Source: an uncultured Planctomycetia bacterium
GTDB lineage: Bacteria; Omnitrophota; Gorgyraeia; Tantalellales; Tantalellaceae
Length of the DNA: 61,273 nucleotides
Direction of reading: 5' to 3'
Assembly (NCBI GenBank): GCA_964572255.1
Contig: CAZNEE010000007.1
Coordinates: 3,708-64,980 of the forward strand
Shown here: positions 2,227 to 2,303 of the stretch, in pieces
Layout: every line of letters starts with the position of its first letter
Position numbering within the stretch: position 1 is the first letter of the stretch
Notes under the pieces: model-generated
Told to the model about the DNA's origin: nothing
Seen by the model: the letters and a program-made list of their open reading frames with translations, nothing else
Database searches by the model: none
Position numbers and translations under genes: made by a program

Positions 2227-2303
2227 AAGAGTGTAGCATGTTCCCGTACGGGGAGGATCCACTCCGGGCGGAGGGGCCCTGGTAGGGAACATACTGCACT
2301 CTT
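2227..2303. repeat. 77-bp hairpin repeat, family 1 copy A (REP/MITE-like or structured RNA)
   Basis: 19-bp terminal inverted repeats (AAGAGTGTAGCATGTTCCC...GGGAACATACTGCACTCTT). 70/77 identical to the reverse complement of 33417-33493. Confidence 0.85.

What the first reader, a model, noticed from the sequence alone, without database searches (positions are those of the whole stretch)
2227..2303. Family 1: 77-bp whole-length hairpin repeat present twice, 31 kb apart in opposite orientation
Seen: 2227-2303 and the reverse complement of 33417-33493 have the same length and differ at 7 positions. Both have 19-bp terminal inverted repeats around a GC-rich core containing GGATCC and GGGCCC. One pair changes compensatorily (element positions 14/64, G-C vs A-T). 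Two further changes give G-U-compatible pairs when read as A(+)/B(-). Copy A lies 54 nt upstream of the DUF2148 start. Copy B lies 24 nt downstream of the lptB stop. There is no ORF and no clear target-site duplication. Inference: an unnamed REP/MITE-like element or a small structured RNA acting as an mRNA-stability or processing signal.
Basis: partly seen in the sequence, partly recalled or inferred. Interest (0 to 1): 0.7.

Follow-up and report, generated by a model that had tools for sequence, protein, structure and literature searches.

The report
Capped hairpin repeat of Omnitrophota
The two 77-base hairpins are real copies of a very abundant intergenic repeat of Omnitrophota bacteria that I could not find described anywhere; its long stem changes freely while a 29-base tip stays almost invariant, so it is most likely a small mobile element read by an unknown protein.

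Summary
They are not a two-copy curiosity. The same tip occurs at least 126 times in 33 species-level assemblies, nearly all Candidatus Omnitrophota. In the metagenomes that hold this window, 50-110 contigs match or break at the element. Across copies a 29-nt cap (GGGAGGATCCACNCCGGGCGGAGGGGCCC) is about 99% conserved. The arms are only 51% identical yet 96% base-paired, and 18 of 19 pairs show double changes. Copies are intergenic and lie among housekeeping genes. Their orientation to neighbouring genes is random, they have no target duplication, and no recurrent neighbour gene was found. The orthologous lptB-hpf spacer is empty in some relatives and holds the element in the opposite orientation in another. 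No family in Rfam 15, no viral contig and no paper matched.

Best reading (0.5): a non-autonomous mobile hairpin, copied through a single-stranded intermediate whose folded cap is read by an unknown trans-acting protein. Effects on host mRNA would be by-products. A host-selected RNA role is not excluded. The cap also sits on a second, much wider unannotated hairpin scaffold. I rate it a new variant of REP/MITE-like repeats, of moderately high interest.

The parts
2227..2303 (+). Copy A, the whole 77-nt capped hairpin. It lies in the divergent spacer between a small MerR/HTH-like ORF (1803-2009, minus strand) and the DUF2148 gene (2358-2885, plus strand).
   Evidence: (87.3 bits, E 2e-21). The identical locus is present in two other assemblies of the same strain (L118, L119).
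2227..2245 (+). Copy A, 5' arm (19 nt). It pairs with 2285-2303.
   Evidence: fold. The homologous columns covary in 62 copies.
2246..2248 (+). Copy A, GUA. With the GUA at 2282-2284 it forms a symmetric 3x3 internal loop (G.A, U.U, A.G). The A and its partner G are conserved across all stem subtypes.
   Evidence: A at -7 in 103 of 123 copies, G at +6 in 105 of 123.
2251..2279 (+). Copy A, the 29-nt near-invariant cap GGGAGGATCCAC-T-CCGGGCGGAGGGGCCC. The predicted fold has GGG/CCC closing pairs, an AGGA bulge, UCC/GGG, a bulged A, CNCC/GGAG and a GGGC loop. The variable N is T in this copy and is A in 100 of 123 copies.
2285..2303 (+). Copy A, 3' arm (19 nt). It is followed by the T-rich stretch CATTTTTATTTTT.
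33417..33493 (-). Copy B, the whole 77-nt capped hairpin on the minus strand. It lies between the lptB stop (33518) and a promoter-like site of hpf (33353-33325).
   Evidence: (93.2 bits, E 5e-23). Unit ends are confirmed by the loose ends of other contigs.
33441..33469 (-). Copy B, the 29-nt cap in its consensus form (N = A).
33475..33493 (-). Copy B, 5' arm. It pairs with 33417-33435 (the 3' arm); all 19 pairs are standard, one of them a G.U.

Best explanation
Each copy is a non-coding, non-autonomous palindromic repeat from a large family that is gained, lost and multiplied at the DNA level in Omnitrophota genomes.

Proposed mechanism: the unit is copied through a single-stranded intermediate of fixed polarity, the strand that reads GGGAGGAUCC. 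This could be ssDNA, as in HUH/tyrosine-transposase systems such as IS200/IS605 and REP-RAYT, or less likely RNA. On that strand the arms snap into a 19-35 bp helix. The helix presents an asymmetric 29-nt cap and a sheared A.G platform to a protein encoded elsewhere in the genome. Only copies with an intact cap and paired arms are copied again.

This would explain why the cap is almost invariant, why the arms drift to the host's base composition while staying paired, and why G.U (G.T) mismatches are tolerated on one strand. Any effect on neighbouring transcripts, such as a block to 3' exonucleases, an RNase III substrate or partial termination, is a by-product.

Shown here: repetition, dispersal, presence/absence at orthologous sites, sharp unit ends, absence of a target duplication, covariation, strand asymmetry of the mismatches, and absence of a linked gene.

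Inferred: the single-stranded intermediate, the existence of a cap-reading protein, and its type.
For: - These hold 126 instances in 33 species-level assemblies, 42 of them in one MAG.
- Abundance in the window's own samples: in the sediment and seawater metagenomes that hold the window, 36-109 contigs per run match the element, not counting a run that holds only part of the window. Summed depth there is 950-6900, against a baseline of 7-27. Many contigs end inside the element.
- Sharp unit: the non-matching parts of those contigs start exactly at 33417 and at 33493-96.
- Location: 94 of 128 copies are intergenic by crude ORF calling. Neighbours are housekeeping genes (uvrA, mfd, ligA, purB, rpsA, der, sugar epimerases). 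No protein family recurs next to the element.
- Orientation to neighbouring genes is random.
- Presence/absence polymorphism: the syntenic lptC-lptB-hpf-tig-clpP locus has no element in L113-115, L123, L124 and L125. It has the element on the opposite strand, with one cap substitution, in L116/L117. Copy A is absent upstream of the DUF2148 gene in three relatives.
- No target-site duplication was seen in the window copies or in nine near-identical type-2 copies.
- Conservation pattern: the cap is 98.9% identical and the arms 51% (distal 42%, proximal 62%). Cap positions that the search did not force are also invariant: GGGA in 121-123 of 123 copies and CCC in 115-123 of 123. A structure-based search of 650 kb that did not require an exact core found only 3 further copies, all sharing one cap variant.
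- Arms: 95.8% of cells are paired and 18 of 19 pairs show double changes. The covariation score is 0.575, against 0.149 for shuffles and 0.07-0.11 for slid controls.
- Strand asymmetry: G.U 42 against A.C 17 on the cap-sense strand. The excess holds both for copies co-oriented with their neighbours (8:1) and for anti-oriented copies (11:4). That fits a fixed-polarity intermediate better than selection on host mRNA.
- Population structure: each genome carries mainly one stem subtype. There are subfamilies with near-identical arms, larger composite units, direct tandem clusters, and chimeras with another repeat joined inside the cap.
Against: - No transposase or other partner was found. No recurrent neighbour exists, a crude HUH/Y-motif regex found no RAYT/IS200-like ORF in about 0.8 Mb of loci, and the element is absent from viral contigs.
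- The outermost base pairs, where a classical transposase would bind, are the least conserved part.
- Copies show no bias relative to gene direction, a weak proxy for replication direction. IS200/IS605-type elements usually show such a bias.
- The cap is conserved in genomes of 36-68% GC, and it also occurs on a second, independent hairpin scaffold. It could therefore be a functional module selected by the host.
- The conserved sheared A.G pair, the bulges and the G.U tolerance are as typical of protein-binding RNA as of ssDNA.
- Ascertainment: 21 of the 29 cap positions were fixed by the search pattern. Of the three copies found without it, two carry one substitution each (L116, L141) and one is exact (L194).
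Confidence: 0.5

Rival explanations
1. A host-selected cis-acting RNA module. When transcribed within mRNAs, the long helix and cap act as a processing, stability or termination signal (for example an RNase III site, a 3' end protector or a protein-binding hairpin), and each copy is kept by selection on the host.
For: - Massive covariation of the arms together with a near-invariant asymmetric cap, a conserved sheared A.G pair and bulges.
- G.U exceeds A.C on one strand.
- Both window copies are in sense orientation to the adjacent genes, and copy B sits right after the lptB stop.
- The lptB-hpf spacer holds some kind of hairpin in most of the lineages examined.
- Published REP work also reads G-T pairing as a sign of transcription (PMC3733652).
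Against: - Orientation relative to the flanking genes is random (22 sense, 24 antisense), and divergent spacers are not avoided (13, against 10 convergent).
- The G.U excess is equally present in copies antisense to their neighbours.
- Copies are not conserved at orthologous sites, and the same spacer holds the element in both orientations.
- Across copies there was no excess of T just downstream, though hairpin ends were placed only approximately. The terminator scan called no terminator at either window copy.
- Copy numbers of tens to hundreds, with assembly breaks, are those of a repeat rather than a regulator.
Confidence: 0.2
2. A family of independently transcribed small RNAs (many paralogous genes), in which the cap is the binding site of a conserved protein and the long stem is a stabilising chassis.
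For: - Random orientation to neighbours is what stand-alone genes would show.
- Strand-specific G.U tolerance.
- In one MAG about 12 copies lie in a roughly 200-nt conserved unit with upstream sequence that could hold a promoter.
- Some copies in the window's community share 30-nt flanks.
- The cap occurs on two different chassis, like a functional RNA module.
Against: - In the window and its community, conservation stops exactly at the base of the hairpin, which leaves no room for a promoter.
- No sigma-70-like site is positioned to drive either window copy.
- No flank is shared across genomes.
- No RNA run could be found.
- There is no Rfam match.
Confidence: 0.1
3. The mobile or functional unit is only the cap with its short closing helix (about 35-45 nt). 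It inserts into the loops or centres of pre-existing palindromes such as other hairpin repeats or terminators. On this reading the arm 'covariation' reflects different targets rather than compensatory evolution.
For: - The cap sits on at least three unrelated stem types, including the widespread GCGGGUGAC...GGCAGGACCCGC scaffold, which usually carries other interiors (120 of 122 hits lack the cap).
- In type-2 copies, pairing often continues a few bases into the flanks.
- Arms of single copies in non-Omnitrophota genomes are perfect and unique, for example 33 bp in L040.
Against: - In the window lineage the whole 77-nt unit including the arms is what repeats. A and B share their arms, L051, L012, L063, L099 and L116 have similar arms, and contig similarity ends at the hairpin base.
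- The empty lptB-hpf sites contain no pre-existing palindrome resembling the arms.
- Arm conservation decays gradually with distance from the cap rather than stepwise.
Confidence: 0.15
4. A duplex-DNA protein-binding site (nucleoid, partition, uptake or restriction-related). The palindromic hexamers of the cap (GGATCC, CCGG, GGGCCC) would be bound as double-stranded DNA, perhaps presented on a cruciform.
For: - The element is independent of orientation and occurs in many intergenic copies.
- Three restriction-site-like palindromes lie within 29 nt (read directly from the sequence).
- As DNA, the cap on its own has no fold better than shuffled sequence (z 0.38).
Against: - The G.U against A.C asymmetry points to one folded strand.
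- Arms must stay paired, which duplex binding would not require.
- A propagating variant replaces GGATCC with GCCTCC.
- Presence is patchy among close relatives.
Confidence: 0.05

Closest known systems
REP / REPIN elements mobilised by RAYT (REP-associated tyrosine transposase)
   Same: - High-copy, extragenic, palindromic repeats with no coding capacity.
- Stems that vary by complementary substitutions and G-T pairs.
- Within-genome populations of subfamilies.
- No target duplication.
- Occasional clusters.
- GTAG-tagged repeats have also been reported in the PVC superphylum (PMC3733652).
- The type-1 form even carries GTAC and GTAG tetranucleotides beside the inner helix.
   Different: - REPs are 20-40 nt with stems of 6-13 bp and an unpaired GTAG or CGTC tag at one end. 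In REPINs the conserved parts are the arms and the spacer loop is free.
- Here the unit is 77-90 nt, the arms are free and a 29-nt asymmetric loop module is the conserved part.
- The GTAG is internal and is absent from types 2 and 3.
- Clusters are in direct rather than alternating orientation (L009, L035, L101).
- There is no bias against divergent spacers.
- No RAYT was found.
Bacterial MITEs that fold into long RNA hairpins (Correia/NEMIS of Neisseria, ERIC, RUP). This comparison rests on general knowledge, not on a test made here.
   Same: - Size class of roughly 70-150 nt.
- Terminal inverted repeats that make the whole element a hairpin.
- Intergenic and intra-operon insertion.
- Potential to act on co-transcribed mRNA.
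   Different: - MITEs have conserved termini matching a parent IS, and a target-site duplication.
- Here the termini are the least conserved part, no duplication is seen and no parent IS was found.
IS200/IS605-type ends and other HUH-enzyme substrates (ssDNA hairpins read by structure)
   Same: - An imperfect hairpin with bulges and mismatches, recognised on one strand.
- No target duplication.
- Strand-specific tolerance of G.T.
   Different: - Those hairpins are short and subterminal in an element that encodes TnpA, and insertion is biased to the lagging-strand template.
- Here there is no linked gene and no detectable orientation bias.
Integron attC sites
   Same: Dispersed imperfect palindromes whose sequence varies while a folded single-strand structure is kept, read by a trans-acting recombinase.
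   Different: - attC sites conserve the base of the stem (the R/L boxes, RYYYAAC and GTTRRRY) and vary the tip, and they lie in cassette arrays beside intI.
- Here the tip is conserved, the base varies, and copies are scattered among housekeeping genes.

Membership tests
Any Rfam 15 RNA family | Match to a covariance model at the family's gathering score | tested here: not met
   There were 0 matches in the whole window. At E up to 10 the only matches were generic-hairpin hits to microRNA models (best 23.6 bits, against a gathering score of 90). Nothing overlapped the element in 17 related loci or in a type-2 copy.
REP (repetitive extragenic palindrome) | Small size (20-40 nt) with a 6-13 bp stem | tested here: not met
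   The unit is 77 nt with 19-bp arms plus an inner helix. Related copies reach 35 bp. The definition is taken from PMC3733652.
REP (repetitive extragenic palindrome) | Unpaired GTAG or CGTC tag at one end of the stem-loop | tested here: not met
   The ends are AAGAG...CTCTT in the window and vary between copies. GTAC and GTAG occur only internally in type 1 and are absent from types 2 and 3.
REP (repetitive extragenic palindrome) | High copy number and extragenic location | tested here: met
   At least 126 instances in 33 assemblies, 42 of them in one MAG. Between 36 and 109 contigs per metagenome run match the element. By crude ORF calling, 94 of 128 copies are intergenic.
REP (repetitive extragenic palindrome) | A RAYT gene in the genome, typically flanked by the repeats | tested here: inconclusive
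   No recurrent neighbour was found. There was no HUH/Y-motif ORF in the loci or the window, but the regex was crude. Whole genomes could not be searched.
MITE | Terminal inverted repeats | tested here: met
   The arms are 19 bp in the window, 17 of 19 positions Watson-Crick in A and 18 of 19 in B; the rest are G.U pairs except one C.A mismatch in A. The terminal sequence itself is not conserved between copies (distal arm identity 42%).
MITE | Target-site duplication flanking the element | tested here: not met
   The flanks of A (AAAATCT / CATTTTT), of B, and of nine near-identical type-2 copies show no direct repeat.
MITE | A parent insertion sequence with the same ends | tested here: inconclusive
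   None was seen in the 112 loci fetched around copies, and there were no hits in viral contigs. Complete genomes were not available.
Intrinsic terminator | GC-rich hairpin followed directly by a run of U | tested here: not met
   Copy A is followed by a T-rich stretch but copy B is not. Across copies there was no excess of T downstream, though hairpin ends were placed only approximately. The scan called no terminator at either copy.
Integron attC | Conserved R''/R' core sites (RYYYAAC ... GTTRRRY) at the base of the hairpin, in a cassette array | tested here: not met
   The bases of the hairpins vary and lack these motifs. Copies are scattered among housekeeping genes.
Mobile element in general | Presence/absence polymorphism at orthologous sites | tested here: met
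   The lptB-hpf spacer holds the element in sense orientation in the window and in antisense orientation in L116/L117. It is absent in L113-115, L123, L124 and L125.

The most novel reading that the evidence does not exclude
The 29-nt cap with its sheared A.G platform is the ligand for a conserved, still unknown protein. It would define a new class of 'tip-recognised' hairpin element: either a mobile element whose enzyme reads the loop rather than the termini, or a new protein-binding RNA module. The same module is used on at least two chassis. One of these, the GCGGGUGAC...GGCAGGACCCGC scaffold, is itself a large unannotated hairpin superfamily in environmental bacteria.
Probability: 0.3. Interest if true: 0.8.

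Novelty: new variant of a known kind. Interest (0 to 1): 0.62.

Why it matters
Omnitrophota are an uncultured, widespread phylum of very small bacteria, and next to nothing is known about their mobile DNA or non-coding RNA.

- This repeat is among the most abundant sequences in the metagenomes that hold the window, and it visibly breaks assemblies. That helps to explain fragmented MAGs. It also gives a simple 29-nt marker for these genomes.
- Its conservation pattern is the reverse of REPINs and MITEs: the tip is frozen, the arms are free, and the mismatches are strand-specific. This implies a specific unknown reader protein and a single-stranded intermediate, so the partner can now be sought by co-occurrence analysis and pull-down.
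- The link to a second, far wider unannotated hairpin scaffold suggests that a larger hidden class of modular hairpin repeats exists in environmental bacteria.

Tried and rejected
- **Rfam:** searched at gathering and at permissive thresholds on the window, on related loci, on a type-2 copy and on the wider scaffold. Nothing matched.
- **Viral contigs:** no hit.
- **Type-1 copies with a changed base after GGATC in metagenomes:** no hit.
- **RNA-seq runs:** none could be listed for either copy.
- **Strain variants lacking the element:** none were seen as joints in the metagenome contigs.
- **Partner-gene searches:** all-against-all clustering of neighbouring ORFs, Pfam on the recurrent or flanking ORFs, and a regex for HUH/Y1 transposases. 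All came back as housekeeping genes or empty.
- **Promoter and terminator scans:** no site that would drive or terminate at the element.
- **Literature:** searches by phylum plus repeat terms and by the sequence itself found nothing relevant.
- **Resemblances seen by eye and dropped because no test supported them:**
  - a K-turn in the type-2 basal loop (the register gives G.G where A.G is required);
  - the sarcin-ricin loop (needs GAA opposite AGUA);
  - the CsrA site RUACARGGA (the GGG is base-paired here and the motif is absent from types 2 and 3);
  - RNase P CR-I and the 3' end of 4.5S RNA (no covariance-model hit);
  - a sigma-54 -24 box in TGGCAC (no -12 element).
- **Cap inversion by recombination between the arms,** as an explanation for the opposite orientation in L116. 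A weak flank similarity (10 of 12 bases) hints that the flanks were inverted too, which argues against it but does not settle it.
- **A hairpin-extent analysis with RNAfold on 160-nt windows** over-extended the stems and was discarded.
- **One script call** returned no answer and was repeated.

Full report
**1. The observation**

Window 2227-2303(+) and the reverse complement of 33417-33493 are both 77 nt and differ at 7 positions. The flanks lose similarity within a few bases of the ends. Each has 19-nt complementary arms, a symmetric GUA/GUA internal loop, a 5-bp inner helix and a GC-rich tip that contains GGATCC and GGGCCC.

Pair 14/64 changes from G-C to A-T. Pairs 7/71 and 8/70 are G.U-type on the strand that carries GGGAGGATCC. 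Pair 11/67 is a C.A mismatch in copy A.

Copy A ends 54 nt before the start of a DUF2148 gene. Copy B begins 24 nt after the stop of the lptB-like gene and lies upstream of a promoter-like site of hpf.

Chance is excluded. A 22-mer of the core matches twice against 0.00 expected. A covariance model gives E about 1e-21 to 1e-23 and finds no further copy in the window. The folds are much more stable than shuffled sequence, both as RNA (-45 kcal/mol, z -5.8 and -7.4) and as DNA (z -4.4 and -6.3).

**2. It is a large family**

These hold 126 instances in 33 assemblies, 42 of them in a single MAG.

Nearly all are labelled Candidatus Omnitrophota. The assemblies labelled 'uncultured Planctomycetia' include at least one whose genes are close relatives of the window's Omnitrophota genes. 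A few single copies lie in genomes labelled Bdellovibrionota or Deltaproteobacteria. The window itself is Omnitrophota: its LptB is 88-93% identical to proteins so named.

In the sediment and seawater metagenomes that hold the window, 36-109 contigs per run match the element (a further run holding only part of the window had 3). Summed depth there is about 950-6900, against 7-27 beside it. Many contigs, often at the same depth as the window, end inside the element. Their non-matching parts start exactly at 33417 and at 33493-96. The 77-nt unit is therefore a sharply bounded, high-copy repeat that breaks assemblies. It is absent from the viral collection.

**3. Anatomy across copies**

A 29-nt cap, GGGAGGATCCACNCCGGGCGGAGGGGCCC, is almost invariant.
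- The positions that the search did not force are also fixed: GGGA in 121-123 of 123 copies and CCC in 115-123 of 123.
- N is A in 100 copies and G in 21. It lies opposite an A.
- The next pair outward covaries through all four Watson-Crick types, and the pair after that switches between C-G and G-C.
- An A on the 5' side (103 of 123 copies) and a G on the 3' side (105 of 123) form a conserved non-canonical platform. This appears as GUA/GUA in type 1 and as tandem GA/GA in types 2 and 3.

Beyond that, the arms share no sequence. Mean pairwise identity is 51% (distal half 42%, proximal half 62%), against 98.9% for the cap. Arm composition follows the host, which ranges from 36% to 68% GC.

The arms nevertheless stay paired. 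In 62 type-1 copies, 95.8% of cells are paired and 18 of 19 pairs show changes on both sides. The covariation score is 0.575, against 0.149 in shuffles and 0.07-0.11 when partners are slid.

Ascertainment matters for the cap, since 21 of its 29 positions were fixed by the search pattern.
- A covariance-model search of 650 kb that did not require an exact core added only 3 copies. All three carry the same variant, AGGATCC changed to AGCCTCC.
- Of the three copies found by other routes, two carry one substitution each (L116, L141) and one is exact (L194).
- A metagenome scan for type-1 frames with a different base after GGATC found none.

**4. Which strand folds**

Among non-Watson-Crick cells of the arms, G.U outnumbers A.C by 42 to 17 on the strand that carries GGGAGGAUCC. 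The excess holds for copies co-oriented with both neighbours (8:1) and for anti-oriented copies (11:4). The counts are small and not independent. Even so, they favour a folded single strand of fixed polarity that does not depend on host transcription.

**5. Context**

By crude ORF calling, 94 of 128 copies are intergenic. Most of the apparent overlaps are in GC-rich genomes, where spurious ORFs abound.

Orientation relative to neighbours is random: 22 sense, 24 antisense, 10 in convergent spacers and 13 in divergent spacers. The shared sense orientation of the two window copies is therefore a coincidence.

Neighbours are housekeeping genes (uvrA, mfd, ligA, purB, purQ, rpsA, der, rmlD-type epimerases, glycosyltransferases), and no family recurs. 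A crude regex found no HUH/Y1 transposase-like ORF. No promoter-like or terminator-like site fits either window copy. In an approximate profile there is no excess of T downstream across copies. No target-site duplication is visible.

**6. Gain and loss**

The lptC-lptB-hpf-tig-clpP locus is syntenic in eight lineages whose LptB is 90-93% identical to the window's.
- The window has the element 24 nt after the lptB stop, in sense orientation.
- L116/L117 have it 21 nt after the stop, on the opposite strand and with one cap substitution.
- L113, L114 and L115 have an 87-nt spacer with no element.
- L123 and L125 have a small AT-rich hairpin instead.
- L124 has a different GC-rich hairpin.

Copy A is present in two other assemblies of the same strain. 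It is absent upstream of the DUF2148 gene in three relatives, where gene order also differs.

Within genomes there are subfamilies with near-identical arms, a roughly 200-nt composite unit repeated about 12 times in one MAG, and direct tandem clusters. There are also two chimeras in which the 5' half of a cap is joined, exactly after GGAGGGGC, to another approximately 125-nt repeat.

**7. Interpretation**

These properties are those of a dispersed, non-autonomous repeat that turns over at the DNA level. The conservation pattern is the reverse of REPINs and MITEs, whose arms or termini are the conserved part.

The simplest model is this. Propagation passes through a single-stranded intermediate of the cap-sense strand. 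On that strand a long helix of any sequence presents the cap and the A.G platform to a trans-encoded protein. Selection at the copying step then keeps the cap and the pairing, while the arms drift and take on the host's composition.

The lack of a target duplication and the dependence on a hairpin make an HUH/tyrosine-type enzyme the leading candidate. None was found, and there is no orientation bias relative to gene direction. I put this model at about 0.5.

The rivals are:
- a host-selected RNA signal (0.2), weakened by random orientation, by the G.U excess in antisense copies and by non-orthology;
- stand-alone small RNA genes (0.1), weakened by conservation ending at the hairpin base;
- a cap-only unit that inserts into existing palindromes (0.15), supported by the modular chassis but contradicted for type 1 by shared arms and by empty sites without arms;
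- a duplex-DNA binding site (0.05).

**8. Comparison with what is known**

No Rfam 15 family matches. No paper in the searched library contains the cap sequence or describes repeats in this phylum.

Against the published definition of REPs (20-40 nt, stems of 6-13 bp, an unpaired GTAG or CGTC tag at one end, RAYT association; PMC3733652), the element shares copy number, extragenic location and G-T-tolerant covarying stems. It fails on size and on the tag, and the RAYT test is inconclusive. As a MITE it has inverted repeats but no duplication and no conserved termini. It works most like REP/REPIN or IS200/IS605-type hairpin substrates. It cannot be filed as a member of either.

**9. A wider lead**

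The basal motif of the type-2 stems, GCGGGUGAC ... GGCAGGACCCGC (a 5-bp closing helix plus a conserved asymmetric UGA/GCAGGA loop), gave more than 120 metagenome hits from soils and sediments. Only 2 of 122 carry the cap. Some hits may be chance matches in GC-rich coding sequence. The rest have other interiors in recognisable subfamilies, no Rfam match and no recurrent neighbour. Two uncapped members also lie in an Omnitrophota MAG. The cap is thus one module on at least two chassis, and the second chassis is itself an unannotated hairpin superfamily.

**10. Verdict**

The element is a real, abundant and apparently undescribed repeat family with an unusual tip-conserved architecture and an unknown reader. 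I rate it a new variant of a known kind, with interest about 0.6.

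Noticed in passing
L126-L245 (metagenome loci); also L013:2168-2262(+) and L013 minus strand around 1068-1161: A hairpin superfamily with a conserved base, GCGGGUGAC ... N50-80 ... GGCAGGACCCGC. It gave more than 120 hits in soil and sediment metagenomes, some possibly chance matches in GC-rich coding sequence. Interiors vary in recognisable subfamilies (for example ...CCGCGCGCA-loop-GAGCACGG...). 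Only 2 of 122 hits carry the cap. There is no Rfam match and no recurrent neighbour gene.
   Followed up: partly
L015:2400-2535(-), L112:6690-6830(+), L027:3700-3880(-), L109:1230-1260(-), L068:2494-2640(+): MAG JBDRFA01 carries a second repeat of about 125 nt (AGCYTGATCCGTGAATAGTTTATGGTGAATGG...AAACGTCCCC). In two loci it is fused to the 5' half of a cap exactly after GGAGGGGC. In L027 it lies in the loop of another long hairpin that also begins with GGAGGGGC. In L109 it follows the same 5' arm but is cut off where a cap-hairpin composite unit begins. This suggests recombination at a shared 8-9 nt or nested insertion into hairpin loops.
   Followed up: partly
L021, L027, L041, L060, L062, L073, L076, L079, L109, L111 (around each cap): In the same MAG about 12 cap-hairpins are embedded in a roughly 200-nt larger conserved unit (AATACGGCTTTAACTTGATCAGTATTGTAGCTATGGCACAAAACGAAAACATTTTTATGAT-hairpin-CTCGGTTATCACCAGAAATAACAATACCAATCAGGTTTAAATGG). 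This is a composite repeat or a possible transcription unit.
   Followed up: partly
window 37190-37337 and 42672-42819: A different intergenic repeat of about 150 nt, 86% identical between the two copies and in the same orientation. At least the first copy has its own terminal inverted repeat (37183-37216 / 37311-37344). It is unrelated to the capped hairpin.
   Followed up: no
window 3236-3822: Three 65-nt direct repeats spaced 261 nt apart lie inside the minus-strand ORF 2956-4704. This ORF is ribosomal protein S1, so they are the repeated S1 domains. Ordinary.
   Followed up: yes
window 32920-33264(-): The hpf gene of the window encodes a short 114-aa protein with only the S30AE domain. All relatives examined at the same locus encode the long 180-184-aa form with the C-terminal dimerisation domain.
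   Followed up: no
L124:1725-1795; L123:1765-1790; L125:1735-1760: The lptB-hpf spacer holds other hairpins in relatives that lack the capped element. L124 has a GC-rich palindrome of about 70 nt. L123 and L125 have the small hairpin TTTGTGAAA-N4-TTTCACAAA. The spacer seems to be a preferred place for hairpins of several kinds.
   Followed up: partly
L110, L121 (assembly CAYPCX01) and other 'binchicken' assemblies: Assemblies labelled 'uncultured Planctomycetia' carry the repeat. At least CAYPCX01 encodes a DUF2148 protein 74% identical to the window's Omnitrophota protein, and a near-identical contig of the same lineage encodes an LptB 93% identical. The taxonomic label looks like a placeholder.
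   Followed up: partly
L116:3326-3375, and loose ends at window 2226 and 33503 in runs X1, X3, X5: Some copies in the window's community share about 30 nt on the 5' side of the cap-sense strand (TAGCCTRAAAAATCTCGCCGGYYTTATCTT). Others share about 30 nt on the 3' side (AAAYTTAAATWCAACAATC...). Longer composite versions of the unit therefore exist. The two window copies lack these extensions.
   Followed up: partly
L020:4080-4163(+) beside 5S rRNA (4361-4477, minus strand) and the 23S rRNA 3' end: One copy lies about 200 nt downstream of the 5S gene at the end of an rRNA operon, antisense to it.
   Followed up: no
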